Assembly: GCA_964549395.1 (NCBI GenBank)
Contig: CAZJVY010000006.1
Location: 6,972 to 70,971 of the forward strand
From: an uncultured Armatimonadia bacterium
Lineage (GTDB): Bacteria; Armatimonadota; Zipacnadia; Zipacnadales; UBA11051
Length of the DNA stretch: 64,000 bases
Direction of reading: 5' to 3'
Part shown: positions 1,779-44,938 of the stretch, in pieces
Position numbering within the stretch: the first letter of the stretch is position 1
How the letters are laid out: every line of letters begins with the position of its first letter
Notes under the pieces: generated by a model
Told to the model about the DNA's origin: nothing
What the model saw: only the letters and a program-made list of their open reading frames with translations
Databases searched by the model: none
Program-made: the position numbers and the translations under genes

Positions 1779-2078
1779 TAACCGCTTCACCTCAAGCTTC
1801 GTGCGGCCGTGGAACATCACGCCTACGCCGCACGTCCAACCTGACAGTATGAAGATTTGGTGTCGTCACGGTAACACAGTGGCCGCGTAGGGCCGGACTG
1901 CTGCCTATCCCATTGGTTTGCCGCCGAGCGCCGGCGTACCTGCTTCCGTAGAGGCGCGTCCACAGAGTTCAGGGCGTCAGGCCCCCGGCAGTGCAGACCG
2001 GCGGCATAGAAACGGGATTGCAGGCCCGCAGTCATTGCAGTAAACTGGACTGCAGAAAACGCCAGGGAGATATGACAG

Positions 2079-2702: not shown

Positions 2703-5700
2703 ATGCTGGAAAGGTGCGTCGTGAGTTTGCTGGTGGGTTTGCTACTTGTCATGGCAGCTTCCACAGCGGGTGCCAAGAAGTGCAGTCGCTTCGTCACCGC
2801 GCAGATGCGTGCGAACGCGCTGAAGAACATCGAAACACTTGACTGGGCCGCCGGTCAGCAGAAGAGCGCCATTGCCGGAGCCCAAAGCTGGCTGCAGATG
2901 AGTGACGATCAGCTTTGGGAGATGGTACCCTCCCAGGAATTGCCACGCGCCGACATTACCAACAAGGGGGTCCTGTACGAGGGCAAGCGGCCCGGCTGCC
3001 CCAACTGCGGTGAGGCGGCGCTGAAGTATGGCATGAGGTGGTGGAAGTACGACGCGAACAATGCACCGTGGAAGGCGAAATGTCCCAACTGCGGCCAGGT
3101 CTATCCCAAGAACGATTTCTGGGCGTTCTACCAGACGGCGCTGGACGAACACGGCATGTTCCGGCGCGAACTGGGCGACCGTTCTCTGCTTTTCAACGCC
3201 GAGCACCCCGACCCAAACGACCCCTTGCACAAGCTCTATGTGGACGACGGCTACGGAATGGTGGACGAGAAGGGGGATACGCATCACATCATTGCTGCTT
3301 ACTGCCAGTGGGTGCAGTGGCCCAGAATCTACGGGGCCATATCGGCTCTGGCGCAGGCCTACACGCTCACCGGCGACAAGGCGTATGCCCACAAGGCGGC
3401 CGTGCTTCTGGACCGCGTCGCCGACGTGTACCCCGAGATGGATTATCTGCCCCTGCACAAGTTGGGCTTCCAGCACAGCCAGGGCGGCACCGGAGAGGGC
3501 CGCATTGAGGGATGCATCTGGGAGACCGGCGCGGGGCAGAGGTTCGCCCGCACCTACGACCTGATCTACGATGGCATCCAGGACGATGGAGAGCTGGTGG
3601 CGTTCTGCTCGCGGAAGGCGGAGCAGCACAAACTGGGTGATAAGAGCAGCATCGCCGCAATCTGCCGGCACATTGAGGACCATCTGCTGATGGAGATACT
3701 GGCTTCGTGCAGGGATGGCCGCATCAGGGGCAATACCGGCATGACACACGCCTGCCTGGCGAATAGTGCGATAGCCCTGGACAGAGAGAAGATCACGGAG
3801 GAATGGCTGAACTGGCTATTCGATCCATGCTATCCGGGTGAGTATAACCAAAGCAAGGATCCGGTGCCCTGGGTGTTGGTCGAAGGCCTGGACCGTGACG
3901 GAATGGGCGGCGAATGTGGGGGATATGGCTTCATCTGGACCCGCTACATGCAGCAGCTCGTCGAGATCATGTCATCCTACCCGGACTACAAGGCACATGA
4001 CATGGTGGCCGAGTTCCCGAAGCTGAAGCAGAGCTTCCTGGTAGAAGCACGTCTCAACGTGCTGGATTCCACCGTCCCGAACATCGGCGATAGCGGCGCG
4101 ACCGGCACATGGGGCCGGGCGGGTAACGCGGCCACCTTCATGCGGGCCTACAAGCTCTACAGGGACCCTCGCTTCGCCCAAATGGCCTGGCGCGAGCACG
4201 CGGAGTACAAGTCATCACTGCGGCTCCCGGATGACATCTTCGCTCCGGACCCCGATGCTCTCATCCGCGAGGCGGAGAAGGTCGCTCTGGCCGAACCATT
4301 CAAGCTCAAGTGCGACCATCTTGGGCGCTACGGCCAGGCGGTGTTGCAGACTGAGCAGCCTGCAGGCGGCCGTGCCCTGTGGATCCATTACGGCTACAGC
4401 AAGGGGCACTCGCACTGCGACTGCCTCAACATTGGTCTCTACGCAGAGAACATGGACATGCTTCCCGAGCTGGGCTATCCGGAGTACACAGGCTCCTGGC
4501 CCAAGCGGGGAGCCTGGACATCCAATACCATCAGCCACAATACGCTGGTGGTGAATGACACGAGGTCCGGCTACAGCCCCGGCGGCAGAATCAGCCTATT
4601 TGCAGTACAGCCGCCGCTGCGGGTGATGGATGTCAGCTCCCTGACGGCCTATCCCGATATGCAAACCTACCGGCGGACGGTGGCGCTGGTGGACGTCTCG
4701 GACACCGACAGCTACGTGTTCGACGTTTTCCGGGCCCGTGGCGGCAAGAATCATCGTCTCTCCTACCATGGCCCTGCGGAGAATGCGACTGTTGCCGGTC
4801 TGTCGCTGGTCAAGCAGCCGACGGGCACCTTTGCCAGTCCGGACGTGGAGTTCGCCACCCTCGATGGTGAGCAGGCCGATTTCTACAAGAGCAGCGGCTT
4901 CACATACCTGTACGATGTCGAACGCTCGCCTGGCGCTGTGGCTGGCGGGTACACGGTGGACTGGAAGGCCGAGGACCTGCGCGGCCGCATCAAGGAGGGC
5001 ACGGAGCCGCACCTGCGGCTGCACGGCCTGACGGCCTGCGATGCAGTGGCCCTTGCCAGCGGCGACCCGCCCCAGAACAAGTCCGGGAATCCCCGCCGCC
5101 TGCGCTACCTGATCCAGAGCCGCCTGGGTGAGAACATGGAGAGCCAGTTCGTGACCGTACTGGAGCCGTATGACACGACCCCGTTCATCAAACAGGTTCG
5201 CGTCCTGAAAGTCGAGCACGATGCGGACCATAATTCGGTCGCGGCGGTAGCGGTCGAGCTTGCGGACGGCACGACTGACATACTCATCAACTGTGAAGAG
5301 CCGACCCAGGTGACGGTCGAGGGCGGCATCGAGTTCAACGGCCGGATCGGCTTCCTGAGGCTCGTGAATGGGCAGATGAAGCTCATGCGCATGAGCAATG
5401 CCACACTGCTTAGCTACGGCGGCGTCACGCTGGCCGCGGATCAGGCCGCCTACAAGGGCAAGGTCGTCAAGATTGACGCTTCCGACGCGGAGAACAACCT
5501 TGTCTTCCTCGACCCGCCGCTTCCGCAGAAGGCCGATCTCGTAGGCGGGACGATACATTTCGGCAATGCGCTGCCTCTGGACACCAGTTATGAGATACGA
5601 GCCGTGACGCCCGAGGGCATTTCCACGGGCGACATCACGATCATCCACGGCTTCCAGGATAAGGGGGACTTCGCGGCCGGCCATAAGTACCTGGTCAATG

Positions 5701-5747
5701 TCGGGGATGACTACATGGTCCCATGCAGCGTCGGCCTGGACCGCTAG
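2703..5747 (+). CDS. large secreted heparinase II/III-like (polysaccharide lyase-like) protein, paralog 1, with embedded double CPxCG zinc ribbon
   Basis: N-terminal signal peptide. GHSHCDCLNIGLY...LPELGYPEY motif resembling the GHxHxD motif of the heparinase II/III family (from memory). CPNCG-x26-KCPNCGQVYPKNDF zinc ribbon at aa 99-139. GGAGGA RBS. Confidence 0.6.
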   Translation: MLERCVVSLLVGLLLVMAASTAGAKKCSRFVTAQMRANALKNIETLDWAAGQQKSAIAGAQSWLQMSDDQLWEMVPSQELPRADITNKGVLYEGKRPGCPNCGEAALKYGMRWWKYDANNAPWKAKCPNCGQVYPKNDFWAFYQTALDEHGMFRRELGDRSLLFNAEHPDPNDPLHKLYVDDGYGMVDEKGDTHHIIAAYCQWVQWPRIYGAISALAQAYTLTGDKAYAHKAAVLLDRVADVYPEMDYLPLHKLGFQHSQGGTGEGRIEGCIWETGAGQRFARTYDLIYDGIQDDGELVAFCSRKAEQHKLGDKSSIAAICRHIEDHLLMEILASCRDGRIRGNTGMTHACLANSAIALDREKITEEWLNWLFDPCYPGEYNQSKDPVPWVLVEGLDRDGMGGECGGYGFIWTRYMQQLVEIMSSYPDYKAHDMVAEFPKLKQSFLVEARLNVLDSTVPNIGDSGATGTWGRAGNAATFMRAYKLYRDPRFAQMAWREHAEYKSSLRLPDDIFAPDPDALIREAEKVALAEPFKLKCDHLGRYGQAVLQTEQPAGGRALWIHYGYSKGHSHCDCLNIGLYAENMDMLPELGYPEYTGSWPKRGAWTSNTISHNTLVVNDTRSGYSPGGRISLFAVQPPLRVMDVSSLTAYPDMQTYRRTVALVDVSDTDSYVFDVFRARGGKNHRLSYHGPAENATVAGLSLVKQPTGTFASPDVEFATLDGEQADFYKSSGFTYLYDVERSPGAVAGGYTVDWKAEDLRGRIKEGTEPHLRLHGLTACDAVALASGDPPQNKSGNPRRLRYLIQSRLGENMESQFVTVLEPYDTTPFIKQVRVLKVEHDADHNSVAAVAVELADGTTDILINCEEPTQVTVEGGIEFNGRIGFLRLVNGQMKLMRMSNATLLSYGGVTLAADQAAYKGKVVKIDASDAENNLVFLDPPLPQKADLVGGTIHFGNALPLDTSYEIRAVTPEGISTGDITIIHGFQDKGDFAAGHKYLVNVGDDYMVPCSVGLDR

Positions 5748-5782: not shown

Positions 5783-5817
5783 TTGCCTGTCGAGCAATCG
5801 GCAGGCAATTTGTTTTG
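5783..5817 (+). terminator. candidate intrinsic terminator after heparinase-like gene 1
   Basis: Stem TTGCCTG / CAGGCAA (7 bp, 12-nt loop) followed by TTTGTTTTG. Confidence 0.35.
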
Positions 5818-5961: not shown

Positions 5962-7167
5962 ATGGGCCTTTATCGGTACTCAGCGGATGACGGAGATATC
6001 CTGAGAAGTGGCGAGGTCTCAGCGGCCAGCTTGCCGCAGGCCATCAGGAACTTGCAGTGCCGTGGCCTGCGCCTGAATGAAGTCGCCGCAATGAGCCGCG
6101 CAGGCGAGATGTGGGGGCGTCGGCATGAGATCGAGCGGGTGTGGCTGTACCGTCATCTGGCCGATCTGCTGGCCTCCGGCGTGACGCTGTCGGCAGCGCT
6201 GGAGGTGCTCGCCCAGGATGCGCCATGTTCGGCAGACGCAGTTCGCTTGCGCACCATGTCCCAGCTTGTCGCCGGCCAGGGCCTCACGCTGTCGGAGGCG
6301 ATGGAGCAGCACCCAACCCTCATCGGCAGCTACGGAATCGCCGTGGTGCGCTCCGCTGAGCAAGCCAACCGCCTTCCCGAGAGCCTGCGCATGCTCGCCG
6401 CACACCTCGACAACAGCAACCGCATCCGCGAGCGCTCCATGACGCCTATCGTTTACCCCGCCATCATCCTGATATGGATGGGTGTGGTGTTCGTGTTCCT
6501 GACGACCTTCATACTGCCCAAGTTCATGGACCTATTCCTTGAGTTGGGCATGACCCAAGACAAGTTCCCGCTTCCTACGCTCATGGCCATCAGAGTGAGC
6601 AACGCGGCCCCCTTCTTTCTGTTCTGGCTCGTAGTGTTGCTGCTGGCGTTCGCGCTTTTGCGGGTGTTCTTGCGGCGATCGAAGCGGGTACAGCTCGATC
6701 TGGCGATGTGGTCGCTGTGGATGCCCATTTTCGGGCGGCTGAATCGGGACTGTGCAACGGCACGCGTACTTGGCGTGCTGGCCTTGGCACTGGAAGCCGG
6801 AATGCCGCTGGACCGAGCGCTTGAGGCGGCCGGCCCTGCTGCTGAAAACGAACTGATGAATCTAGCGATGCGCAGGGCGGTGGATCGTGCCCGCCGTGGA
6901 TATTCGGCCGGCAAATCAATCGCCGGTGCCGGAATTCTGCCGCCGGCACTTGTCTGGCATTTGCAGACGGCCGAGAAGTCCGGACATCTGGCGGCGACCT
7001 GCCAGGCCGCCGCGGAGACCTACATCGCCCGTGTCGAGATGCACACCGTCCGCACGGCGGCAGTTCTCGAGCCGCTTCTCATCATATTCGTTGGCATATG
7101 CGTCGGCTTCGTCGGCCTCAGCATGTTCCTGCCGTTGGCCGGGATTATCGGAGAGCTGTCATCATAG
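5962..7167 (+). CDS. gspF: type II secretion / type IV pilus platform protein (GspF/PilC family)
   Basis: About 400 aa with three TM segments and two repeated cytoplasmic domains, the typical GspF layout. Immediately upstream of the GspE ATPase. Confidence 0.8.
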   Translation: MGLYRYSADDGDILRSGEVSAASLPQAIRNLQCRGLRLNEVAAMSRAGEMWGRRHEIERVWLYRHLADLLASGVTLSAALEVLAQDAPCSADAVRLRTMSQLVAGQGLTLSEAMEQHPTLIGSYGIAVVRSAEQANRLPESLRMLAAHLDNSNRIRERSMTPIVYPAIILIWMGVVFVFLTTFILPKFMDLFLELGMTQDKFPLPTLMAIRVSNAAPFFLFWLVVLLLAFALLRVFLRRSKRVQLDLAMWSLWMPIFGRLNRDCATARVLGVLALALEAGMPLDRALEAAGPAAENELMNLAMRRAVDRARRGYSAGKSIAGAGILPPALVWHLQTAEKSGHLAATCQAAAETYIARVEMHTVRTAAVLEPLLIIFVGICVGFVGLSMFLPLAGIIGELSS

Positions 7168-7217
7168 ACCAGCACAGATGTCTTCGCGGTAGGTAGCTGC
7201 CGAAGGGAGAAGCTGAA

Positions 7218-8732
7218 ATGTGGTTATTCGAGCCGCTGACATGTGAGCAAACCGTCCCGGGTGACAGGAGGTGGCTGCATCTCTCACCTGACGGTCTGGC
7301 GTTGAGCGAGGCCGGTAAGGTGGCTGGCGACACATCATATGCCCTCGCGGACTACGGCGCAATCTCCGAGGTCCTTCTGCGCGGCGGCCGCCGGGCCAGT
7401 CTGCGGCTCGCCTTCGCCGATCACCGCAACCCGTGGGTAGTGCGTGGAGTGCCGCGACCACATGCAGAATGGGCGCTGCACACGATAAGCGGATATCGTA
7501 AGCTGACACGCTGGGCGCTGAGCGAGGAGGCGAAGGCACCCCTGACGTTTGACAAGATAGCGGCTCGCGTGAACATGTACGCCGATGACATGCCCCTGCT
7601 CGGCAATTTGCTTATCGCCCAGGCGATAGCTCATGCGGCCAGCGACATGGATCTGGAGCCGACGGGAGACGCCTACGCCCTCCGCTACCGCGTTGACGGT
7701 GCGGTGTTCTCCGTGGCCGGGATGCCCAGGACTGCTGCCGAGCGCCTGCTGCGAATGCTGAAGAACCAGGCGAATCTGCAGGCGCACCGCTCCGACATCA
7801 CCCAGGAGGGCCGCATCCGGCTCGCGGCGCAGACCGGTCCGGTTGACCTGCGCGTAACCATCATGCCGGGCATAGCGGGGGAGAAGGTCAACGTCCGTCT
7901 GCTCAACCCCGCTACACAGCTCTTCGGCCTGGATGAGCTGGGCATGAGCGGCCCGCAAGTGGCGCGGATGAAAACGCTCCTGTCTGCACCGACCGGCGCG
8001 GTGGTGCTGTGCGGGCCGGGTGGCGCCGGCAAGACGACAACGATCTACGCCGCACTCACCTACCTGGCGGGCCTGGGGCCCGGACGCGCCATCTCCAGCA
8101 TCGAAGACCCGGTGGAATTCGATCTGGAGGGCGTTTCTCAGACACAGGTCGGTGCCGGGCTGGACTTCGCGAAGGCGCTTGCGGTGTTGCTGCGCCAGGA
8201 TCCGGGGGTGGTGATGGTCGGCGAAATCCGCGACCCCGAAACCGCACAAATCGCCATGCGCGCGGGGATGACCGGCCAGCTGCTGCTCACAACCATGCAT
8301 GCCAGCGGGCCGGAGCTCGTGATCCCGCGCCTGTTCGACCTGGCGGTCGAGCCGTACATGATCAGCTCGGCGTTGGCGGCCATTGTTTCCCAACGGCTGC
8401 TACGCAAGGTGTGCGAAAGCTGCGCTGCAACCTGCACTCCGAGCGCGGAGGAACTGGCCGCTGCAGGGATCACTTCGGAAATGGCCGCGGGCGCTACGTT
8501 CAAGACCGGCAAAGGGTGCCCCGCATGTCATGAGACCGGCTACAAGGGGCGCATCGGCATATTCGACCTGACGGCGATTGACGAAGACACGGCCAATCTG
8601 ATAATGGCGCGCAACATGGCTGCCCTGCGCATGAAGCTGACAAGTGACGGGTTGCGGGCCGCGGCGTTTGAGAAGGTCAAGGCCGGCGTCACCGACATCG
8701 CCGAGGTCATCCGCGTGCTGGGAGTGAGGTAG
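7218..8732 (+). CDS. gspE: GspE/PilB-family secretion ATPase with atypical N-terminal domain
   Basis: Walker A GPGGAGKTTT, Asp box IEDPVEF, Walker B VMVGEIRD, His box LLLTTMHASG, C-terminal tetracysteine CESC...CPACHETGYKGR. Confidence 0.85.
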   Translation: MWLFEPLTCEQTVPGDRRWLHLSPDGLALSEAGKVAGDTSYALADYGAISEVLLRGGRRASLRLAFADHRNPWVVRGVPRPHAEWALHTISGYRKLTRWALSEEAKAPLTFDKIAARVNMYADDMPLLGNLLIAQAIAHAASDMDLEPTGDAYALRYRVDGAVFSVAGMPRTAAERLLRMLKNQANLQAHRSDITQEGRIRLAAQTGPVDLRVTIMPGIAGEKVNVRLLNPATQLFGLDELGMSGPQVARMKTLLSAPTGAVVLCGPGGAGKTTTIYAALTYLAGLGPGRAISSIEDPVEFDLEGVSQTQVGAGLDFAKALAVLLRQDPGVVMVGEIRDPETAQIAMRAGMTGQLLLTTMHASGPELVIPRLFDLAVEPYMISSALAAIVSQRLLRKVCESCAATCTPSAEELAAAGITSEMAAGATFKTGKGCPACHETGYKGRIGIFDLTAIDEDTANLIMARNMAALRMKLTSDGLRAAAFEKVKAGVTDIAEVIRVLGVR

Positions 8733-8734
8733 TA

Positions 8735-8992
8735 ATGCGCCGGATCGCGTCAGACATCTACTGGGGCCTGTACGGCCTTGCTCACTACGTGCAGTTCCTC
8801 GTTCTCGCAGCACTGGTGTTGCTGCCGGTTGCGGCGTTCACCGTAACGACAATGCACATCGGCGCCCCCATGCTGCATGTGCCACTGCTGGTCGCAGCCG
8901 GCCATTTCTTGGTCCTGGGGCTGTTGGGTTACGGCATATACTACCTGCCCGCGCAGCTCGAGAGTAGAGTCGCTTCTCCCGAGGATGAATAG
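8735..8992 (+). CDS. small 2-TM membrane protein of unknown function
   Basis: ATG 3 nt after the gspE stop with a GGGAGTGAGG RBS. Two hydrophobic helices. Confidence 0.4.
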   Translation: MRRIASDIYWGLYGLAHYVQFLVLAALVLLPVAAFTVTTMHIGAPMLHVPLLVAAGHFLVLGLLGYGIYYLPAQLESRVASPEDE

Positions 8993-8994
8993 CA

Positions 8995-9351
8995 ATGCGC
9001 TCTGCCCCTGACGCACCGACAACCTGGGACAAGCTGGCCGACGCGATGCCGACATTCGCGCATTGGTGGGCGGTGCTGGCTGACCTGCCCGGCTATCTGG
9101 TCGAGTGGTGGCCCGTCGGGAGCATGTGGCTGCGCTTTGTTTGCGTGCTTGTGCTGGCCATCGTATTTGTGGCATTGTTCCTGTTATGCGGCATTGGAGG
9201 GCTGGCATGGGCGGGTGCGCCGGTGATATTCCTTGGAATGGGGATGTGGCTCTGGCAGCGCAACGCCCGCACCAGAGCTGACCGCTTCTGGTACTACAGG
9301 TCGGCCCCGCTGAGAAGTGACATAGCCTTCCCGGAGGCCGATGACGAATGA
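8995..9351 (+). CDS. small 2-TM membrane protein of unknown function
   Basis: Starts 3 nt after the previous stop. Trp-rich with two hydrophobic helices. Its stop overlaps the next start (ATGA). Confidence 0.4.
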   Translation: MRSAPDAPTTWDKLADAMPTFAHWWAVLADLPGYLVEWWPVGSMWLRFVCVLVLAIVFVALFLLCGIGGLAWAGAPVIFLGMGMWLWQRNARTRADRFWYYRSAPLRSDIAFPEADDE

Positions 9352-9737
9352 GACGGGGAGCGACACTCATCTCGACATTGGTGGGAATGGCCATCCTGGC
9401 CGCGGTGCTGGGGGCCACGGTACACATCTACTCTCTCGGCAGCCTCGCCGCCGGCGTCGCCGAGAGCCGCAGCATCGCTCTAATGGTTGCTGAGACACAA
9501 CTGGAGACCATGCAGGCGGAAGGATATGCAGCGCTTCCTGCAATCGGCGAGTATCCTCTGCACGTGCCGATGCTTGGCAAACTGCCGGGAGCAGCGGGAA
9601 CGCTCACGGTCGCTCAAGGGCCGGACCCGCAAAGCCGCACGGTCAGTGTGAAGATAGCGTGGCAGCAGCGCCCCGGACGCCCCACTTCAGCCGTCACCCT
9701 CAGCCGCATTATCGCCGCCGGGGGGATGAGCCGATGA
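9348..9737 (+). CDS. minor pseudopilin-like protein (GspI-like; non-canonical N-terminus lacking Glu+5)
   Basis: RRG|ATLISTLVGMAILAAV hydrophobic N-terminal helix. Translationally coupled within the operon. Confidence 0.45.
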   Translation: MRRGATLISTLVGMAILAAVLGATVHIYSLGSLAAGVAESRSIALMVAETQLETMQAEGYAALPAIGEYPLHVPMLGKLPGAAGTLTVAQGPDPQSRTVSVKIAWQQRPGRPTSAVTLSRIIAAGGMSR

Positions 9738-10165
9738 ACCGCAGGGGCATCACGCTGCTGGAGACACTCATCGCAATCGCGGTCTTCACCGTGCTCATCT
9801 CGTTGGTGCTGAGAATGTTCTTTCTCGGTGACAGGGCCATGATGCGCAGCGAGGCCGGGCTGAAAGCGACGTTGGGCCGCGTCGCCCTGCAATCCCAGTT
9901 GCGCAATGATATCTGGATGGCAACGCAGTTCCAGAGTGCCGCCGATGACATGGCAACATTCATCATGCCTGACGGGACTGTTGCGATCTATGCGCCTGCT
10001 GCAGGTGGCAAGGTATCGCGCACCTGCAGCGGCGAGGAGACTCTGTACAAAGGCACCTTGGTGTTCTCGGAGGGCAAGCACGGTCTGATAGCAGTGCTCG
10101 GCCAGGACACCGCCGAGTGGGGCTTCGCAGCCCGGATGCGCAATAAGGCGCGTGAGCGGCGATGA
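9734..10165 (+). CDS. pseudopilin with prepilin-type N-terminal cleavage/methylation motif (GspH/J-like)
   Basis: MNRRG|ITLLETLIAIAVFTVL with Glu at +5. Start placed at ATG 9734, overlapping the previous stop (ATGA). Confidence 0.6.
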   Translation: MNRRGITLLETLIAIAVFTVLISLVLRMFFLGDRAMMRSEAGLKATLGRVALQSQLRNDIWMATQFQSAADDMATFIMPDGTVAIYAPAAGGKVSRTCSGEETLYKGTLVFSEGKHGLIAVLGQDTAEWGFAARMRNKARERR

Positions 10166-10623
10166 GATGCAGCAGGCGAAGAGGAGCGGCATTGCTGCTA
10201 GCGGTGATTCTCGTAGGCACCGCGGCGATGCTGGGCATGGCCGCATACGTGACGACCGTGGCCGTCGGCGCCGCCCGCGTGCAACACCAGCGCGATACGC
10301 TGCAGTGCGTCTATGCGGCGGAGAGCGGCATCGAACTGGCCATGGCGCGCGCCAACCGGGGTGTCATCGCTGATGGGCCGATAGCCGGCAGCGTCGGCAC
10401 CGCGCTCTTCACCGCCCGCGCCGTGCAGACAGACGGCAAGCTGACCATCACCTCCGACGGCATCCAACAGCGCCCCGGACGCGCGCAACTGGTACGCCGC
10501 ATCGAGGTGGTATGCCGCCGTTCGAACGGCACGTACCAGATCAGCCGGTGGCGGACGTTGCCGCCGCCCGAACCCGAAGCGATTGAGCCGGCACCGATTG
10601 GCCCGCAGGAGGAGAACCGATGA
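10162..10623 (+). CDS. minor pseudopilin-like protein (GspK-like, no Glu+5)
   Basis: RRRG|AALLLAVILVGTAAML N-terminal hydrophobic segment. ATGA overlap with neighbours. Confidence 0.45.
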   Translation: MRCSRRRGAALLLAVILVGTAAMLGMAAYVTTVAVGAARVQHQRDTLQCVYAAESGIELAMARANRGVIADGPIAGSVGTALFTARAVQTDGKLTITSDGIQQRPGRAQLVRRIEVVCRRSNGTYQISRWRTLPPPEPEAIEPAPIGPQEENR

Positions 10624-11180
10624 CCTACCGGCGCGGCTTCATGTATGCGGATGTGCTCTGCACGCTGGCCGTCATCGGCCTCATGTACGCCCTGGTGATG
10701 GGCTACGCAACGCGCGCGGTGACGCATACCCGGACTGCGGCATGTGCACACAACATGCACGAAATCGGGGTGGCACTACGCGCGTATGCATTGGACTATG
10801 GCGGCGCCTTTCCGGCGCAGCAATGTGGCCTGGAAGCCCTTTGGGACAAGTATGCGGCAGACAAGGGGATTCTAGTGTGCCCGCAGGTGGAGGTTCTTGC
10901 GAAAACGCAGAAGGACGACGTGCCGCCATCGCGGGTGGCGGGCCGCACTGATTTACTGGTGGACTATGTCTATCGCGGCGGCCTCTATGGCGATGACCTG
11001 CCGTCTCTCCCCGTTGCGATGGACTACCTGGCCCGACAGCACCAGGGCGGCGCGAACGTGTTGTATCTGGATGGGCATGTGCAGTGGCGCGCCTTCCCCG
11101 AGACGCACATCTTCAGCAGGCAAATGCTCACCTCCGGGGCGCTGGACGGAACCCCGCCGCTACGGGGGGATAAGCCATGA
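10620..11180 (+). CDS. prepilin-type N-terminal domain protein, DUF1559 family (H-X9-DG type)
   Basis: RRG|FMYADVL N-terminus. Characteristic C-terminal LYLDGHVQW (DGH) motif. Confidence 0.65.
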   Translation: MTYRRGFMYADVLCTLAVIGLMYALVMGYATRAVTHTRTAACAHNMHEIGVALRAYALDYGGAFPAQQCGLEALWDKYAADKGILVCPQVEVLAKTQKDDVPPSRVAGRTDLLVDYVYRGGLYGDDLPSLPVAMDYLARQHQGGANVLYLDGHVQWRAFPETHIFSRQMLTSGALDGTPPLRGDKP

Positions 11181-11692
11181 AACGCGGCTTCATACTTGTT
11201 GAATTTGCGAGTGCCGTGGCGATCATTGCTATTCTGGCGGCCATCCTGTTTCCGGTCTTCGCGCGAGCCAGGGAGAAGGCCCGCCAATCGAACTGCCTCA
11301 CCAACATGCTGAACGTCGGAGTGAGCCTGCGCCAGTATGCCGCCGACTACTGCGGTGGCTTTCCGCCGAACGATCTCGATTTCACACCCCTACTCCACAA
11401 GTACCTGCCCGACGAGCGGGTGCTCGACTGCCCCAGCACGACTCGCACGTTCGATGGCACCGAAGGCGACTACTCCTACAAGGGCGGCTATCGCGACGAC
11501 GACCGTGGCGACCTGGTTCTGATGATGGAGCGAATCCTCAATGCCCACAACGAGGGCTGCAACTATCTTTGCATAGATGGTCACGCGAGGTGGTTCAAAG
11601 CTTCCTCTCAGTGTGTCCCGTCCGATGTAAAGTCAATGCCCGGGGTTGACACAAGCCCCTTGGGCAATTCATTCGGAGAGTTCACGCCATGA
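11177..11692 (+). CDS. prepilin-type N-terminal cleavage/methylation domain protein, DUF1559 family
   Basis: MKRG|FILVEF...IAILAAILFPVFARAREKARQSNC hallmark N-terminus. C-terminal CIDGHARW. Confidence 0.75.
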   Translation: MKRGFILVEFASAVAIIAILAAILFPVFARAREKARQSNCLTNMLNVGVSLRQYAADYCGGFPPNDLDFTPLLHKYLPDERVLDCPSTTRTFDGTEGDYSYKGGYRDDDRGDLVLMMERILNAHNEGCNYLCIDGHARWFKASSQCVPSDVKSMPGVDTSPLGNSFGEFTP

Positions 11693-12348
11693 AACGGCAG
11701 CATATCATAAGAATAGTCGGCAAGCGCGCATTCTGTCTCGCGGACTTGCTGATAACCATAGCAATGATCGCGATCCTCGCCGCGATTCTGTTTCCGGTAT
11801 TCGCCCGCGCCCGCGAGAAGGCGCGAGCCGCGACGTGCACGAGCAACCTGGTGAATATCGCGCTCGCCCTGCGCAACTATGCCGCAGACAACGACATGCG
11901 CTATCCGCCGCGTGACAATGACCTGTCCCCGCTGTGGCCGGTGTATGTCAACACCCGCCTGACCTTTGCCTGCCCCAGCATATCGGCCGGCAAGCCGATG
12001 GGAATGATGCCGGCGGACGAGCCTCCGCAGCCTCCCACTGGTGGACCGCCACCTCCTCCGGATGTTTCGACTACGCCGCCGCCCGGACCGCCTGTACAGC
12101 AGCCGCCACCAGCGGCCATGCCTCCGCCGGAGGACGCACCTGAGGTGACGCTGGAAACGGGCTATTTCTACGTCAGCGGCTACCGCTACGACCAGTTCAT
12201 ACGCCGGATGCCGCTGTCGGGAGACTCAGGCGCAAGCCGGCACAATGACAGGGCCAATGTGCTCTTCACGGACGGCTCGCTTGGACTGTGGACAAGAGCG
12301 GACTACCTCCGGGCAGGGCTGCAACGCTATGCATGGATGGATGATTGA
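11689..12348 (+). CDS. DUF1559-family prepilin-type protein with proline-rich linker
   Basis: IAILAAILFPVFARAREKARAATC. Pro-rich insert PPQPPTGGPPPPPD...PPPGPP. C-terminal FTDGSLGLW. Confidence 0.7.
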   Translation: MKRQHIIRIVGKRAFCLADLLITIAMIAILAAILFPVFARAREKARAATCTSNLVNIALALRNYAADNDMRYPPRDNDLSPLWPVYVNTRLTFACPSISAGKPMGMMPADEPPQPPTGGPPPPPDVSTTPPPGPPVQQPPPAAMPPPEDAPEVTLETGYFYVSGYRYDQFIRRMPLSGDSGASRHNDRANVLFTDGSLGLWTRADYLRAGLQRYAWMDD

Positions 12349-12914
12349 TGCGAACCGGACGGGCCGCAAACAGGGGATTCAGCGGACTTGAGCTGCTCAT
12401 GGTCATGTTGATACTGACCGGCCTGACGGCGTTCGTTGTGCTGATTGGAGCACAGGCACGCTCCAAGGCGCGTGAGAACAACTGCCTGAGCAATCTGAAG
12501 CAGCTCGCGCACGCTGCGGCGATGTACGCCGCAGATTACGGCGGCCGCTACCCCCGCGACAGCTTCGCCAACGGACTGATGCCTTACATCAAGAATGAGC
12601 AGGTACTGCGCTGCCCCACGCAAGGCGTCTGGCGTGGCTCCTTTGACACTCAAGCCGAGTTGCGCGAAGCCGGGGAGAACTTCAGTTGGTATCGGGACGA
12701 GCAGGGCAAGCTGACGGTCATTGACTATTACTTCGTACCCGGTCTGTGCAGCGATGACCGGCCTGACACGATACTAGCATACGATGACATCCCGGACCGC
12801 CACCCGCACAAGTCCTTCAACATGGTGCGGCTTGACGGCGCGGGCTGGAAGCTGCCGGCCGGACGATGGCCCGGCGTTCCTGCTCAGGTCAAGGAGGTTG
12901 CTGGCAATGAATAG
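12345..12914 (+). CDS. DUF1559-family prepilin-type protein
   Basis: RG|FSGLELLMVMLILTGL...ARSKARENNCLSNLKQL. C-terminal RLDGAGW. Confidence 0.6.
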   Translation: MMRTGRAANRGFSGLELLMVMLILTGLTAFVVLIGAQARSKARENNCLSNLKQLAHAAAMYAADYGGRYPRDSFANGLMPYIKNEQVLRCPTQGVWRGSFDTQAELREAGENFSWYRDEQGKLTVIDYYFVPGLCSDDRPDTILAYDDIPDRHPHKSFNMVRLDGAGWKLPAGRWPGVPAQVKEVAGNE

Positions 12915-13446
12915 ATGTGGATTTACGCTGATAGAACTGCTGGTGGTAATCGCGATTATCGCGATCCTGTCCGCCATGCTGATGCCGTCGTACTCGACCA
13001 CCAATGACCGCAGCCGCGTGGCGGAATGCAACACGAATCTGACCTCGATCTACCTGGGTATCCAGATGTGGGTGGAGGATCACGGGACGCGCCCCGAGAG
13101 TCTGCAGCAGCTCTATGAGAAGGGATACGTGACCGACGAGTCCATCCTGCGCTGTACAAAGACCGGCGCGGAGTACTACTACAATCCGGCCGCGGGGAAG
13201 GACGAGATACTGGCCGCCTGCGTGCATCCCCATACTGAGAGTGGCAAGCGCCCGCACTCGTTCAGGCAATCGTATGCTGCGCTGCTGGGCGGCGGCAGGC
13301 TGGTCGAGATCGGTCGCAAGACCTACTCCTTGCCTGACTACGGCGTTAAGGAAACGCCCGAGGAAGAGGAGAACAGGACACGGATTCCGCCGCCTGGTCC
13401 TCCTCCATCCGCTCCTCCTCCGCCACCCCCACCCCCATCCCCATAG
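12907..13446 (+). CDS. prepilin-type N-terminal cleavage/methylation protein (DUF1559-like) with poly-Pro C-terminus
   Basis: MNRCG|FTLIELLVVIAIIAILSAML. Start at ATG 12907, overlapping the previous stop. Ends PPPGPPPSAPPPPPPPPSP. Confidence 0.6.
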   Translation: MNRCGFTLIELLVVIAIIAILSAMLMPSYSTTNDRSRVAECNTNLTSIYLGIQMWVEDHGTRPESLQQLYEKGYVTDESILRCTKTGAEYYYNPAAGKDEILAACVHPHTESGKRPHSFRQSYAALLGGGRLVEIGRKTYSLPDYGVKETPEEEENRTRIPPPGPPPSAPPPPPPPPSP

Positions 13447-13599
13447 TGCTGTTCTCTTGCAGATGGACAAACGCCGGCCGCTCGCGTGGCCGGCGTTTGC
13501 GTTTGGTGTTTTCCCAATCGTGGAGGCCAAGGCCGCTTGGCCGGCGAAATTGAGCCATCGCGGAAGTCCGATGTACCAGCCGCAGAAGGGGGCAGTCAC

Positions 13600-16500
13600 A
13601 TGCGCATCTGTAGTCTGATCTGTCTGATTATGGGAGGAATACTCATCATGAGCGGACTTGTCTTGGGCGGCGCGGTTGAGGATGAACCGTTGGTGGACTG
13701 GTCACTGTGGGAGAAGTACCGCAAGACGGTCCAGCACCCGGCCGGCTATATCAATGCACAAGACCTGGAAAACGCGCGGGAAAACATCAAACGTTATGAT
13801 TGGGCGCGCGATTTCGCCAAGTCCGCCGAAGACACCGTGCTCCCGCACCTGCAGCGGCTGACGCCGGAGTTCATCGAGAGCATGATACCGACCACGACGT
13901 GCATTCCGTGCTACCAGTGCCCGGCGTGTCACGACAAGGGACTGCCCGGTCACCCCGGTGGGGAATGGAGTTGGTCGCTGGACAACCCCGACGTCATAAC
14001 GTGTCGGCGCTGCGGCACCGTATTCCCCAATGACGAGTACCCGGAGACTATCGTGTTGGAGTGCAAGTCGGAAGCCGGCAAGGGCCAGAAGTTCAGCTTC
14101 TATGGCGCTAAGACTTTCAGGCAGTGGGGCTATCCCAACTACCGCCCCAGCTTCTCTAGCGGCATCAGGGCCCAGAAGATAGGCTGGTGCAAGAGCATGG
14201 TCTACCGCCTCGCGCGAGCCTACGCGCTGACCGGCAAGCCCGAGTACGCCGAGCCCACCAGGCTGCTGCTTCTGCGCTTTGCGGAGGTGTATCCCAACTG
14301 GCTGCTGGTGTCCACGTACGGCGAGATTGCCGACATGGACCCGCACGTGGCGGCCTTCAGCATGGACAGCCTTCCCGAGGATGAACTGGTGCACCCGCCC
14401 AACAAGCCCGACCGCAAGCTCTACAACGGCTCGTGGGCGGGCTGCAGATGCGGCGGCGGAGGCCAGGAGGGCTATGCGACCGGCATGTTCCTATCGGCGT
14501 ACGAGTTGACCTACGACGCCAGGAAGGCCGATGGCACGCCGCTGTACAGCGAGGAGGAACGCATCAAGATCGAGCACGACCTGATCCTGGAAAGCTGTGT
14601 GCACCTCGTCGCCGAGAAGCGGATTAACAACAAATCGGTCGGCAACCGCATCGCAGTGGCGAATGTCGGCATCGCTCTGGGGCATCCCGGCTTCGTGCGC
14701 TTCGGCCTCGAAGGCTGGGACCTGACCATGAATAACTGGTTCCTGGCTGACGGCTGCACGCCCGAATCGCCGGCATACGCGCTGATGAGCCTGGGGGGAG
14801 TATACTCACTAGGACAGTCAATCCGTGGCTACTCCGATCCACCCGGCTACACGGATGAAAACGGCAAGCACATCGAGGGGCTGAACCTCTACGAAGGCAG
14901 GTACAAGCTGGTCTGGCAGCGGATGCTGGAGGGTCTACAGGGCAATCTGGTCTATCCCCCGTATGCCGATTCCTATCGCACCTCGGGCATCGGTACGCGC
15001 TTCGCCGAGTTGCTGGCGGCCAATTACCCCGACAACCCGCAATGCCTGGCACTGCTGAAGGCGTATGCCGGCGATGACCTGGGCAAATGCGACCAGGAAA
15101 CGGCCATCTTCTTCAGGAGGCCGGGCCTGGAAGAGAAGCAAGCCCCACCGCTTCATTTTGACGACAACTTCTTCCCGATACTCTGTCTGGGGCAGGTGCG
15201 CACCGGTGAGGATGGCCGCACATCTCTGGCGCTGTTGAGCGCCACTCACTCGGGCGGACATCATCATGTTGACAGCCTCAACCTGTACTACTGGAAGGAC
15301 GGGCAGGAACTGCTGACAGACCTCGGCTACCTCTGGGATCACCCGAAGGCAGGCATGACCCGTCGCACCTTCTCCCACAACACCGGGATGGTTGACCTCA
15401 AAGAGCAGAAGATGAAGGGACGCGGCGGGCAATTCCACCTCTTCCATACCGGTGACAGCGTCAAGGTGATGGAAGCGTCCTCCAACGCATACGACGGTGC
15501 CGATGTCTACCGCCGCACGGTCGTGCAGATTGACCATGCGCCTGGGAACTCCTACATTGCCGACATCTTCAGGCTGCGTGCCGATGGCTCGCGCGACCTG
15601 GTCTATCACGGGCCTAACAGCGATTACGAAGTCTCCGGCATCCAGTTGCAGCAGGGCGACATAGTCCTCGCCGCCGAGAAGCAGATGCGCTTCGGCGTGC
15701 GCTTCCACGTCACCGGCAAGACGGATGAGATCTACGTGGACGATGTGAGTATCAAGCTTGCCGACGGGCGGGAGCTGGCAGCCAATCCCTCCGCCTCGGA
15801 GTTGAGTGCGAAGGGGCAGCTTGTCGGCTGGGGCCGCTACGGTGGCAGCGGAACGGCGCAATCAGGCCCGAATTCACCCGGACGCACTGACGAGCGCTGC
15901 GCCTACCTGAAAATCACCGGCGGAGAGGATGTCAACCAGGCGCTGATACAGGGCGACACCAACGGCTATACGGGTCCGAACGCCCTGGAAATGCCCCTCG
16001 GCAGCGAGGGAAAAGTGAGCTTCTGGATTCGCGGCAATGCCGCCACCTGCAGTGTCGGATTTGTGACCTGGCCCAACGACCCCAATGACCCCGGTGACCG
16101 TGCCCACATCGGCCTCGCTTCAGTGCCTGTCACCGACCAGTGGGTTCAGCACACATTGGACTTCTCGCTCAAGCGCAGCGGCATGGACCTTGGGAATGTG
16201 AAATCGGCGCACAGTCCGGATAGTTGGAGCGCTGTCTGGAAAGTGGGGGATGCCCTGCTGTTCTCGGCGCACCATTGCGGCCAGCGCGGCGAACTGACAT
16301 ACATCGGCGACGGCTGGGGCCAACGCGACTGGCGCAACACCGACATCGGCGCCACCATTCCGTACATCGTCCGTCGCCACAGGCCCGACAGCGGCGTCTC
16401 AGCCTTCGCTACCGTCTATGAGGCCCACCCGCCGGACGCGGCGCTTGTTAAATCGGCCTATCGTCTCGCAGTGCCGGAAGAGCAGCGCGACAATCTGGTT

Positions 16501-16749
16501 GCGCTTGCAGTCGAGACCGCCACGGGCACGGATATCGTCATAAGCCAATTGGACCCGGCGGAGACTGAGCTGGATACGCCTGCAGGAAGGGTGCAGACGG
16601 ATGCCGCTGTAGCCGTCATTGCCCTGCAGAACGGTCGTGTCGTTTTCAGCGCGGTTGCCGAGGGAGCTGCGTTGCGCCTCAACGGGGCGGACCTTGCGGC
16701 CCAGAGACTGCGCGCGGGTGAAGCCCTGGCGGAGCAAGTAAGCGAATAG
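13600..16749 (+). CDS. large secreted heparinase II/III-like protein, paralog 2, with double zinc ribbon
   Basis: Signal peptide MRICSLICLIMGGILIMSGLVLG with a GAAGGGGG RBS. CPACH...TCRRCGTVFPNDEY ribbon. GGHHHVDSLNLYYW...LTDLGY motif. Confidence 0.6.
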   Translation: MRICSLICLIMGGILIMSGLVLGGAVEDEPLVDWSLWEKYRKTVQHPAGYINAQDLENARENIKRYDWARDFAKSAEDTVLPHLQRLTPEFIESMIPTTTCIPCYQCPACHDKGLPGHPGGEWSWSLDNPDVITCRRCGTVFPNDEYPETIVLECKSEAGKGQKFSFYGAKTFRQWGYPNYRPSFSSGIRAQKIGWCKSMVYRLARAYALTGKPEYAEPTRLLLLRFAEVYPNWLLVSTYGEIADMDPHVAAFSMDSLPEDELVHPPNKPDRKLYNGSWAGCRCGGGGQEGYATGMFLSAYELTYDARKADGTPLYSEEERIKIEHDLILESCVHLVAEKRINNKSVGNRIAVANVGIALGHPGFVRFGLEGWDLTMNNWFLADGCTPESPAYALMSLGGVYSLGQSIRGYSDPPGYTDENGKHIEGLNLYEGRYKLVWQRMLEGLQGNLVYPPYADSYRTSGIGTRFAELLAANYPDNPQCLALLKAYAGDDLGKCDQETAIFFRRPGLEEKQAPPLHFDDNFFPILCLGQVRTGEDGRTSLALLSATHSGGHHHVDSLNLYYWKDGQELLTDLGYLWDHPKAGMTRRTFSHNTGMVDLKEQKMKGRGGQFHLFHTGDSVKVMEASSNAYDGADVYRRTVVQIDHAPGNSYIADIFRLRADGSRDLVYHGPNSDYEVSGIQLQQGDIVLAAEKQMRFGVRFHVTGKTDEIYVDDVSIKLADGRELAANPSASELSAKGQLVGWGRYGGSGTAQSGPNSPGRTDERCAYLKITGGEDVNQALIQGDTNGYTGPNALEMPLGSEGKVSFWIRGNAATCSVGFVTWPNDPNDPGDRAHIGLASVPVTDQWVQHTLDFSLKRSGMDLGNVKSAHSPDSWSAVWKVGDALLFSAHHCGQRGELTYIGDGWGQRDWRNTDIGATIPYIVRRHRPDSGVSAFATVYEAHPPDAALVKSAYRLAVPEEQRDNLVALAVETATGTDIVISQLDPAETELDTPAGRVQTDAAVAVIALQNGRVVFSAVAEGAALRLNGADLAAQRLRAGEALAEQVSE

Positions 16750-18494: not shown

Positions 18495-18588
18495 TGATGT
18501 TCAGTTTGCCTGCTTCACCGCTGCAACCATCTTCTGCATAGACGACAGAGCGCCCCCTGATGTTGCAGGAGTTTTCACCCCTGCCGCC

Positions 18589-25407: not shown

Positions 25408-25410
25408 AGG

Positions 25411-31207: not shown

Positions 31208-31222
31208 TATCCGTCTCCCGGT

Positions 31223-32019: not shown

Positions 32020-32045
32020 CGCGACCTTTCTCCTGGGAACGCCTG

Positions 32046-33062: not shown

Positions 33063-33063
33063 A

Positions 33064-43603: not shown

Positions 43604-43627
43604 TCCAGCGGGCGGCGCGCCACCTGG

Positions 43628-44881: not shown

Positions 44882-44938
44882 CGTTCCCAGTTTCGTATGG
44901 TGGACTGACCGCAGAACGGCCCTGTCAAAGTGACATCT

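What the first reader, a model, noticed from the sequence alone, without database searches (positions are those of the whole stretch)
5962..13446. T2SS/T4P-like operon with three minor pseudopilins and five tandem DUF1559 prepilin paralogs; no secretin, GspC/L/M or prepilin peptidase in cis
Thirteen genes run from gspF to the last pseudopilin, with nine ATGA/GTGA-type overlapping junctions (9348, 9734, 10162, 10620, 11177, 11689, 12345, 12907). The five DUF1559-type genes share the N-terminal motif (G)FTLIELLVVIAIIAILAAILFPVFARAREKAR and a C-terminal D-G-H/S-x-x-W signature. Two of them end in long poly-Pro tracts. The secretin, the inner-membrane GspC/L/M and the peptidase are absent from this locus. 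Two unknown small 2-TM proteins sit in their place. GspE has a non-canonical 130-aa N-terminal domain.
Basis: partly seen in the sequence, partly recalled or inferred. Interest (0 to 1): 0.5.

Follow-up and report, generated by a model that had tools for sequence, protein, structure and literature searches.

The report
Stripped-down Armatimonadota pilus/secretion filament operon
A conserved 12-gene operon from an Armatimonadota bacterium encodes a pared-down type II-secretion / type IV-pilus-like filament machine whose motor ATPase has a PH-like domain where the usual docking domain sits. It is a lineage-specific variant of a well-known machine, not a new kind of system.

Summary
The operon is real and tightly packed (5962-13446, + strand), with hairpin terminators on both sides. 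It holds 12 genes, not 13: gspF, gspE, two small hairpin membrane proteins and eight proteins with class III (prepilin) signals. Eight junctions overlap, not nine. Only three of the five "DUF1559" genes pass the Pfam cut-off, and only over the N-terminal ~40 profile positions. A fourth is borderline. The fifth (p5) belongs to a separate, better conserved small-pilin family and is probably the major subunit. No secretin, GspC/L/M or prepilin peptidase lies in the 64-kb window or within ±10 kb of the operon in six relatives with Pfam-annotated flanks.

Verdict: a new variant of a known kind (a type IV filament machine, T2SS-like parts in a Com-like layout). Its function, secretion or pilus, is unproven. 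Interest is moderate.

The parts
5783..5808 (+). Terminator-like hairpin (11-bp stem followed by TTTGTTTT) after the upstream heparinase-like gene. It marks the 5' boundary of the operon.
5962..7167 (+). gspF/pilC-like inner-membrane platform protein (401 aa)
   Evidence: PF00482, two stretches, 124.7 bits. TIGR02120 GspF is the best NCBIfam match at 198 bits, below its equivalog cut-off. PilC 3jc8 E=8e-27.
7218..8732 (+). gspE/pilB-like assembly ATPase (504 aa). Residues 1-~126 form a PH/PTB-like N-domain. Residues 127-499 form the T2SSE core with Walker A GPGGAGKTT and a CxxC...CxxC motif.
8735..8992 (+). tm1: 85-aa hydrophobic hairpin membrane protein with an acidic C-terminal tail (...RVASPEDE). 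Its start lies 2 nt after the gspE stop.
   Evidence: No Pfam or NCBIfam hit. Orthologs follow gspE in the related loci examined, some overlapping its stop by 4 nt. Hydropathy and tail motif.
8995..9351 (+). tm2: 118-aa paralog of tm1 with the canonical tail ...DIAFPEADDE. Its presence varies: found in the window, L008 and L011; absent in L001, L002, L012, L013 and L014.
9348..9737 (+). m1: 129-aa class III signal protein (MRRG|ATLIS, no Glu5), weakly GspI-like
   Evidence: TIGR01707 24.9 bits, below its cut-off; PF02501 E=0.037. Orthologs 54-69% identical. A profile search found nothing in the PDB.
9734..10165 (+). m2: 143-aa prepilin-type protein (MNRRG|ITLLE, Glu5 present)
   Evidence: N_methyl 24.7 bits, above GA. 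Only the N-terminal helix matches pilins in the PDB.
10162..10623 (+). m3: 153-aa class III-like protein with no Glu5 (RRRG|AALLL). It carries a PilX_N/GspK-like 'QCVYAAESGIE' motif and is the putative tip or initiator subunit.
   Evidence: Sequence. The motif is conserved as AEAG/AESG in all orthologs. No profile hit.
10620..11180 (+). p1: 186-aa HX9DG/DUF1559-type pilin-like protein with a degenerate signal (RRG|FMYAD, Asp5)
   Evidence: PF07596 24.4 bits and TIGR04294 28.2 bits, both above their cut-offs.
11177..11692 (+). p2: 171-aa HX9DG/DUF1559-type pilin (KRG|FILVE)
11689..12348 (+). p3: 219-aa HX9DG/DUF1559-type pilin with an internal Pro-rich insert. The signal has Ala at -1 and Asp5 (KRA|FCLAD).
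   Evidence: PF07596 33.0 bits; TIGR04294 19.0 bits, exactly at its cut-off.
12348..12914 (+). p4: ~188-aa DUF1559-like pilin (NRG|FSGLE). The start is ATG 12348 (TGATG overlap) or TTG 12345.
   Evidence: PF07596 22.6 bits, just below GA 23.3. Junction. Orthologs 40-53% identical.
12907..13446 (+). p5: 179-aa canonical prepilin (NRCG|FTLIELLVVIAIIAIL) with a C-terminal poly-Pro tail. It is the best conserved gene of the cassette and the putative major subunit.
   Evidence: N_methyl 35.6 bits, no DUF1559 hit. 67-83% identity to orthologs against 58-71% for GspE. It forms a discrete family: ~64 clusters with E<=1e-25, then a gap to 1e-12.
13468..13499 (+). Terminator-like hairpin (14-bp stem, 10 GC pairs) 22 nt after the p5 stop. 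It marks the 3' boundary of the operon.
13600..16749 (+). Recurrent neighbour, not part of the operon: an exported heparinase II/III-like protein (hepB). It is a candidate cargo only.
   Evidence: PF07940 34.8 bits. Homologs 33-35% identical lie directly 3' of the operon in L002/L010, L011 and L014.

Best explanation
This is a self-contained, Armatimonadota-specific type IV filament cassette. Its parts look T2SS-like and its layout looks Com-like.

Shown:
- A GspF-type platform, a GspE/PilB-type assembly ATPase and eight class III signal proteins are co-transcribed with translational coupling. The whole set is conserved in order across the lineage.

Inferred mechanism:
- A prepilin peptidase encoded elsewhere matures the eight subunits.
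- m1-m2-m3 prime assembly. m3 lacks Glu5, as GspK and PilX do.
- p5 is the bulk subunit of a short filament or endopilus.
- The four HX9DG/DUF1559 pilins p1-p4 act as low-abundance or adaptor subunits.
- The ATPase has lost the N1E/T2SSE_N domain that normally links it to GspL/PilM. It carries a PH/PTB-like domain instead.
- I propose that this domain binds the conserved cytoplasmic φ-x-[Y/F]-P-E tail of the small hairpin membrane protein(s) encoded directly after gspE. That contact would tether the motor to the platform without GspL/M.
- The output is most likely movement of exported proteins across or onto the outer envelope, for example the neighbouring heparinase II/III-like enzymes. This would happen either through a secretin encoded elsewhere or without one.
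For: - Components: E and F profiles and eight class III ORFs. GspE keeps Walker A/B and the tetracysteine motif.
- Operon structure: six ATGA overlaps plus two other overlaps and two 2-nt gaps, with flanking hairpins.
- Conservation: the same gene order is seen in L001/L013, L002/L010, L008/L009, L011, L012 and L014. It is also seen in the deep relatives L004, L017 and L018.
- Paralogs: each pilin paralog has a 1:1 ortholog.
- Rarity: the N-domain family has only 24 representatives at the 50% identity level in 1.84e9 proteins. The 22 single-stretch matches all lie at the N-terminus, and the full-length ones are 485-516 aa.
- Tail motif: present in 12 of the 13 small membrane proteins examined, including the deep relatives (LEYPP, LDYEP, IRYRE).
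- Pilin fold: the p2 model is a pilin fold with EpsG among the top hits.
- Major subunit: p5 is the most conserved gene, as the major pseudopilin GspG is in T2SSs (my own knowledge).
- Missing parts: no secretin, GspC/L/M or peptidase in the window or in ±10 kb of six relatives.
- Cell envelope: a GT9 heptosyltransferase in the window hints at a cell with LPS and two membranes.
Against: - The PH-domain/tail contact is pure inference. No complex model or covariation test could be run.
- The membrane topology of the small proteins is unproven. They have ~60 hydrophobic residues, which could be two or three helices. With three helices the tail would be periplasmic.
- In the window, tm1 lacks the aromatic residue of the motif (VASPE).
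- m1-m3 fail every GspI/J/K cut-off.
- The link to cargo is weak. Four paralogs of the heparinase-like family lie in this one window, so adjacency could be chance or inherited synteny. L001/L013 and L012 lack that neighbour.
- The rest of the genome could not be searched for a secretin or a peptidase.
Confidence: 0.55

Rival explanations
1. This is a conventional multi-locus T2SS. The operon holds only the E, F and pseudopilin genes. The secretin GspD, GspC/L/M and GspO sit elsewhere in the genome and complete an ordinary secretion machine.
For: - GspF and GspE score best against the T2SS profiles, and m1 is weakly GspI-like.
- Peptidases are often shared between systems or encoded apart. T2SSs were detected computationally in Armatimonadetes (Denise et al. 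2019, PMC6668835).
- The organism probably has two membranes (GT9 heptosyltransferase), so an outer-membrane conduit is needed if the filament or its cargo must exit.
Against: - The GspE N1 domain that binds GspL is replaced by an unrelated PH-like fold in every member of the clade. This argues against a GspL partner.
- None of six annotated related loci has any of C, D, L, M or O within ±10 kb.
Confidence: 0.2
2. This is a surface type IV pilus or Com-like (pseudo)pilus used for adhesion, DNA uptake or motility, not for protein secretion.
For: - The layout (ATPase, platform, then pilins; no secretin or peptidase in cis) matches ComG operons, which place their pilins at the locus edge (PMC6668835).
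- The Pro-rich tails on p5 and the Pro-rich inserts in p3 and p4 orthologs look like surface-exposed linkers.
- PilB scores are as good as GspE scores.
Against: - There is no PilT-type retraction ATPase and no PilMNOPQ in cis.
- The putative major subunit p5 is unusually conserved (67-83%). Surface pilins usually diverge fast (my own knowledge).
- ComG profile hits are weak and cover only the N-terminal helix.
- Armatimonadota probably have two membranes, so a surface pilus would still need an outer-membrane pore.
Confidence: 0.2
3. This is a decaying or non-functional remnant. The degenerate signals (Asp5, Ala-1, missing Glu5) and low-complexity Pro tracts would indicate pseudogenised pilin paralogs.
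For: p1, p3 and p4 have non-canonical class III motifs. Several profile scores fall below their cut-offs.
Against: - All 12 ORFs are intact and translationally coupled.
- Every gene has a position-conserved ortholog at 40-83% identity in at least seven species-level lineages, and the same 'degenerate' residues are conserved among them.
- The ATPase catalytic motifs are intact.
Confidence: 0.03

Closest known systems
Type II secretion system (Gsp/Pul/Eps) of Proteobacteria
   Different: There is no GspC, D, L, M or O in cis. The GspE N1E domain is replaced by a PH/PTB-like fold. Two small hairpin membrane proteins are present instead. There are eight pilin-like genes rather than five. Pilin genes lie at the 3' edge and the order is F then E. 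No pseudopilin reaches the NCBIfam equivalog cut-offs.
ComG competence pseudopilus operon of monoderms (ComGA-GG)
   Same: A single operon holds the ATPase, the platform and a run of pilins at the locus edge. Secretin and peptidase are not in the operon. There are no PilMNO or GspLM proteins.
   Different: The order is platform then ATPase. ComG profile hits are weak and cover the N-terminal helix only. The host probably has two membranes. The pilins are of the HX9DG/DUF1559 type, and the ATPase has a PH-like N-domain.
DUF1559 (Pfam PF07596, SBP_bac_10) / H-X9-DG (TIGR04294) prepilin-type paralog families of Planctomycetota, Verrucomicrobiota and Armatimonadota
   Same: p1-p3 pass PF07596. p1 and p3 pass TIGR04294. 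All share the AILFPVFARAREKAR-type helix and the H-X9-DG C-terminal strand. They have thousands of homologs.
   Different: They are short (171-219 aa) and match only the first ~40 positions of the 268-position Pfam model. They sit as single-copy, orthologous members inside an E/F operon, not as dispersed paralogs. P. limnophila, for example, has 68 paralogs of unknown function (PMC10632474).
Atypical reduced T2SSs (Chlamydiae; Bacteroidetes) and the essential T2SS-like operon Plim_0410-0401 of Planctopirus limnophila
   Same: These are T2SS-related E/F loci that lack GspL/M and recognisable minor pilins, or that are followed by lineage-specific unknown genes (PMC6668835; PMC10632474).
   Different: No sequence comparison with those loci was made here. 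The PH-like ATPase N-domain and the tail-motif membrane proteins are not reported for them in the papers I read.

Membership tests
T2SS (Gsp) | GspE-family hexameric ATPase core (Walker A/B, His/Asp boxes, CxxC...CxxC) | tested here: met
   PF00437 292 bits. TIGR02533 347.8 bits, below its 630 equivalog cut-off. EpsE 4pht E=6e-74. Motifs read in the sequence.
T2SS (Gsp) | GspE N1E domain that binds cytoplasmic GspL | tested here: not met
   The alignment to TIGR02533 starts at residue 119, at model position 101. There is no PF05157 hit. Residues 1-135 are modelled as a PH/PTB-like fold.
T2SS (Gsp) | GspF polytopic platform with two T2SSF repeats | tested here: met
   PF00482, two stretches, 124.7 bits. 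TIGR02120 198 bits, below its 424 cut-off.
T2SS (Gsp) | Major pseudopilin GspG | tested here: inconclusive
T2SS (Gsp) | Minor pseudopilins GspH/I/J/K | tested here: inconclusive
   m1 scores 24.9 bits on the GspI profile against 44.35. m2 matches only in the N-terminal helix. m3 has no hit. m3 lacks Glu5 and has an AE(A/S)G motif like GspK/PilX; that reading rests on the sequence and my own knowledge.
T2SS (Gsp) | Assembly platform proteins GspC, GspL, GspM | tested here: not met
   They are absent from all ORFs of the 64-kb window and from ±10 kb in six related loci. The rest of the genome was not searched.
T2SS (Gsp) | Outer-membrane secretin GspD | tested here: not met
   No PF00263 hit in the window or in the related loci (same calls). 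Whether one lies elsewhere in the genome cannot be tested with these tools.
T2SS / T4P | Prepilin peptidase (GspO/PilD, Peptidase_A24) | tested here: not met
   Absent in cis (same calls). It is expected in trans, which cannot be tested here.
DUF1559 / SBP_bac_10 (PF07596) | Score at or above the Pfam gathering cut-off of 23.3 bits | tested here: inconclusive
   p1 24.4, p2 26.4 and p3 33.0 pass. p4 22.6 fails. p5 has no hit. All matches cover only profile positions ~2-41 of 268.
H-X9-DG prepilin-associated domain (TIGR04294) | Score at or above 19 bits; H-X9-DG motif near the C-terminus | tested here: inconclusive
   p1 scores 28.2 and p3 scores 19.0. p2 has the motif H124-X9-D134G135 by eye and it is nearly invariant in the family alignment, but no hit was reported. 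In p4 the spacing is off (H-X8/X10-DG). p5 has H-X10-GG.
Type IV pilin / class III signal (N_methyl PF07963, TIGR02532) | G|F-x-x-x-E followed by a hydrophobic helix | tested here: met
   p5 scores 35.6 and m2 scores 24.7, both above GA 21.2. The other six show the pattern with substitutions (Asp5, no Glu5, Ala-1) and fall below the cut-off. The p2 model is a pilin fold.
T4aP | PilMNOPQ alignment complex and PilT retraction ATPase | tested here: not met
   None in the window or in the related loci.
ComG pseudopilus | ComGA/ComGB/ComGC-GG equivalog profiles | tested here: not met
   ComGA 182 vs 300, ComGB 108.8 vs 240, ComGC 36 vs 75, ComGE no more than 25 vs 49 bits.

The most novel reading that the evidence does not exclude
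The cassette may be a distinct, previously unclassified branch of the type IV filament superfamily. In this reading the motor ATPase is tethered to the membrane by a PH/PTB-like domain that binds a φ-x-[Y/F]-P-E tail of a mini hairpin membrane protein. That would be a new motor-to-platform coupling that replaces GspL/M or PilM/N. The cassette would also be the dedicated, possibly secretin-independent, assembly machine for HX9DG/DUF1559 pilin-like proteins, giving the first functional handle on that very large orphan family.
Probability: 0.25. Interest if true: 0.7.

Novelty: new variant of a known kind. Interest (0 to 1): 0.45.

Why it matters
DUF1559/HX9DG prepilin-type proteins form very large paralog families in Planctomycetota and Armatimonadota. 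P. limnophila has 68, two of them essential (PMC10632474), and no function is known. Only four papers in the held library mention DUF1559 at all.

Here four such proteins are fixed, orthologous members of a compact operon with an E/F motor and platform. That ties the family to a specific assembly machine and offers a small, tractable system for asking what these pilins do.

An ATPase that swaps its GspL-binding domain for a PH/PTB-like fold, next to mini membrane proteins with a conserved tail motif, would show a new way of coupling the motor to the membrane in type IV filament machines, if the contact is confirmed. If it is not, the locus remains an ordinary lineage-specific T2SS/T4P variant.

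Tried and rejected
- An exact look-up of the window's GspE found nothing. The closest entry, P0001, differs at a few residues.
- The first genome scan, using the 12-sequence N-domain alignment, failed for lack of a conserved stretch. It was repeated with seven closer sequences.
- Profile searches of m1, m2 and m3 against PDB sequences gave only chance hits or N-terminal-helix hits. GspI/J/K identity could therefore not be established.
- The GspE and GspF comparisons with the PDB could not separate T2SS from T4P.
- Rfam found no riboswitch or other RNA family in the 214-nt leader or anywhere in the window. The sigma-70 promoter scan found no more sites than shuffled sequence and none upstream of gspF.
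- Literature searches for H-X9-DG, for PH domain plus GspE, and for Armatimonadota pilins returned nothing relevant.
- The AFDB50 fold library was unavailable.
- Cluster and contig look-ups did not return the name of the 73-kb NCBI source contig.
- Recent tandem duplication of the five pilins was considered and rejected. Each has its own ortholog in every lineage.
- Horizontal acquisition was considered and rejected. GC is 0.61-0.63 across the operon, like the flanks.
- The GTG start at 13486 for hepB was considered and rejected. It lies inside the terminator hairpin. ATG 13600 gives a signal peptide.

Full report
**1. What is in the sequence**

Between 5962 and 13446 on the + strand there are 12 ORFs with high third-position GC. 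In order they are:
- gspF (5962-7167)
- gspE (7218-8732)
- two small hydrophobic proteins: tm1 (8735-8992) and tm2 (8995-9351)
- three short class III signal proteins: m1 (9348-9737), m2 (9734-10165) and m3 (10162-10623)
- five pilin-like proteins: p1 (10620-11180), p2 (11177-11692), p3 (11689-12348), p4 (12348-12914) and p5 (12907-13446)

The mechanical ORF list gives longer N-terminal extensions for m2 and p5. The ATGA-overlap starts at 9734 and 12907 place the class III motif right at the N-terminus and match all orthologs.

The junctions are six ATGA overlaps, one TGATG/TTGA, one ATGAATAG and two 2-nt gaps. So there are eight overlaps, not nine, and 12 genes, not 13.

Two strong hairpins bracket the unit. 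One lies at 5783-5808 after the upstream gene. The other lies at 13468-13499, 22 nt after the p5 stop. A motif scan of all six frames finds class III signal-like N-termini only in these eight ORFs.

**2. Family assignments**

- GspF: PF00482, 124.7 bits.
- GspE: PF00437, 292 bits, covering residues 127-499.
- NCBIfam ranks GspF and GspE first, but GspE (347.8 bits) and PilB (340 bits) nearly tie, and all scores fall below the equivalog cut-offs. PDB searches tie as well: EpsE 252.9 vs PilB 252.3 bits.
- GspE keeps Walker A (GPGGAGKTT), Walker B and the CxxC...CxxC motif.
- PF07596 (DUF1559) passes its 23.3-bit cut-off in p1 (24.4), p2 (26.4) and p3 (33.0). p4 just fails (22.6) and p5 gives no hit. 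Every match covers only the first ~40 of 268 profile positions.
- TIGR04294 (H-X9-DG) passes in p1 and reaches its cut-off exactly in p3. p2 has the motif by eye, and it is nearly invariant in a 64-sequence family alignment.
- p5 is a canonical prepilin (N_methyl 35.6 bits) without DUF1559.
- m1 is only weakly GspI-like (24.9 vs 44.35 bits). m2 matches only through its N-terminal helix. m3 has no hit.
- m3 lacks Glu5 and has a conserved 'YAAE(S/A)G(I/V)E' motif that recalls GspK/PilX N-termini. The sequence shows the motif; the comparison is from my own knowledge.

**3. What is absent**

Every substantial ORF in the 64-kb window was scanned against Pfam. There is no secretin, no Peptidase_A24, no GspC/L/M, no PilMNOPQ and no PilT.

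The surroundings contain heparinase II/III-like proteins, radical-SAM enzymes, PQQ-type β-propellers, an FtsX/ABC pair, Fe-S flavoproteins and a sugar/LPS cluster. That cluster includes a GT9 heptosyltransferase, which hints at a cell with two membranes and LPS.

**4. Relatives and conservation**

The GspE search splits cleanly into three groups:
- 11 clusters at 55-100% identity that cover the full length, 504-505 aa apart from one partial sequence.
- Two clusters at 38-39% identity that also cover the N-domain. Both of these groups come from Armatimonadota MAGs where a source names them.
- Thousands of ordinary GspE/PilB proteins that align only over the C-terminal ~74% and carry PF05157 at their N-terminus.

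A genome scan with the N-domain found six GTDB species: Ca. Zipacnadia, several 'uncultured Armatimonadia', and Armatimonadetes UBA11051.

In all of these, and in contigs found through exact protein look-ups, the operon has the same order. Identities to the window are F 55-66%, E 58-71%, m1-m3 41-76%, p1-p4 40-72% and p5 67-83%. Each of the five pilins has its own ortholog. They are therefore old, individually maintained genes, not recent tandem copies.

Three deep relatives keep the plan F-E-small membrane protein-m1-m2-m3-(3-5 DUF1559 pilins)-p5-like pilin. In these, GspE is ~38% identical or was detected only by the N-domain profile.

None of the six loci with precomputed Pfam annotation has a secretin, GspC/L/M or a peptidase within ±10 kb.

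tm2 is variable. It is present in the window, L008 and L011, and absent in L001, L002, L012, L013 and L014.

**5. The two unusual features**

A profile of this domain finds only 24 representatives (E ≤ 1e-3) in 1.84 billion cluster representatives. The 22 matches that form a single stretch all lie at the N-terminus, and the full-length ones are 485-516 aa. So this is a small, lineage-restricted ATPase subfamily. I found no report of a PH-like domain on a T2SS/T4P ATPase in the held literature. That search does not prove absence.

(b) The small membrane proteins. They have no database match. Each has ~60 contiguous hydrophobic residues, which I interpret as a helical hairpin. They share a C-terminal motif: YY.P.P[LM][DE]..[VA]A[FY]PE in the close clade, and LEYPP, LDYEP or IRYRE in the deep relatives. 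In the window, tm1 has VASPE and tm2 has IAFPE. In the related loci examined, the gene follows gspE directly or overlaps its stop codon.

**6. Mechanism (inference)**

PTB and FERM-F3 domains typically bind short aromatic/proline motifs in the cytoplasmic tails of membrane proteins (my own knowledge). In canonical systems the N-terminal domain of the ATPase contacts GspL or PilM.

I therefore propose that the PH/PTB-like domain docks onto the φ-x-[Y/F]-P-E tail of tm1/tm2. That would tether the hexamer next to GspF and make GspL/M unnecessary. This was not tested. It also needs the tail to be cytoplasmic, which is unproven.

The filament itself would be primed by m1-m3 and built mainly of p5. 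Three observations favour p5 as the major subunit: its canonical signal, its fixed position as the last gene, and its being the most conserved gene. It forms a discrete family of ~64 clusters with a sharp E-value gap to everything else. High conservation of the major subunit is what one sees for periplasmic GspG rather than for surface pilins (my own knowledge). That tilts me towards an endopilus or secretion role, but only slightly.

A heparinase II/III-like exported protein lies directly 3' of the operon in four of the seven close lineages: the window, L002/L010, L011 and L014. It is a candidate cargo. However, the window alone holds four paralogs of that family, so the link is weak.

**7. 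Comparison with known systems**

The parts are T2SS-like and the layout is Com-like. The pilins sit at the locus edge, and secretin and peptidase are not in the operon; Denise et al. 2019 describe these layout patterns (PMC6668835). That paper reports T2SSs detected in Armatimonadetes. It also notes reduced 'generic' systems, such as the chlamydial one, that lack GspLM and minor pilins. In Planctopirus limnophila, an essential operon of T2SS-annotated genes is followed by six phylum-specific unknown genes, and that genome has 68 DUF1559 paralogs of unknown function (PMC10632474).

The locus fails several T2SS membership tests (N1E domain; C, L, M and D in cis). It also fails the ComG and T4aP profile tests. 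I therefore file it only as a type IV filament superfamily member of unresolved subtype.

**8. Verdict**

This is a new variant of a known kind. The PH-like ATPase domain, the tail-motif membrane proteins and the fixed set of HX9DG pilins are of interest to specialists and can be tested. The overall biology, an E/F-driven pilin filament, is familiar. Interest 0.45.

Noticed in passing
window 2703-5747 (+), 13600-16749 (+), 50091-53768 (+), 62005-63981 (-): Four paralogs of a large exported heparinase II/III-like family lie in one 64-kb window. At least hepA and the 50091 ORF carry an N-terminal CxxC...CxxC zinc ribbon. Only the first two reach the Pfam Hepar_II_III_C threshold. Two of them flank the pilin operon.
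   Followed up: partly
L002 14140-14560 (also L010): There is a partial duplication of the p3 N-terminus (MADLLLTVGTIAILAAILFPVFARS...) just upstream of the p3 ortholog. It suggests a local rearrangement or an assembly artefact in that relative.
   Followed up: no
window 17271-34638 (- strand): This cluster holds four PQQ_2/BamB-like β-propeller proteins, a 1131-aa FtsX-type permease with its ABC ATPase, a fused NuoE/NuoF-like Fe-S flavoprotein (829 aa), a Fer2_4/Fer4_20 oxidoreductase and several 4Fe-4S proteins. It looks like an unusual redox module.
   Followed up: no
window 336-1820 (-) and 35913-37427 (+): Two B12-binding radical SAM enzymes lie at either end of the region that contains the pilin operon and the redox cluster.
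   Followed up: no
window 39539-41299 (+): A single 586-aa ORF fuses DUF116 to a polyprenyl synthetase. It is followed by a prenyltransferase alpha-alpha toroid protein (41296-42219).
   Followed up: no
window 42311-50033: This is a sugar/LPS-type cluster: GT4, DegT aminotransferase, GFO/IDH oxidoreductase, polysaccharide deacetylase, GT9 heptosyltransferase and a cytidylyltransferase. It is consistent with an outer membrane that carries LPS.
   Followed up: partly
L001, L002, L007 upstream of gspF: In relatives the operon is preceded by purF-purM, an FHA-GAF-HATPase kinase, an SH3-amidase_3 and an MR_MLE enzyme. In the window that synteny is replaced by hepA and a radical SAM gene, so the cassette has moved as a unit.
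   Followed up: partly
window 12907-13446 and orthologs; p3 and p4 orthologs: The Pro-rich low-complexity tracts vary in length and position between orthologs. They form the p5 C-terminal tail in most lineages but not in L001/L013, and internal inserts in p3 and in some p4 orthologs. Their role is unknown.
   Followed up: partly
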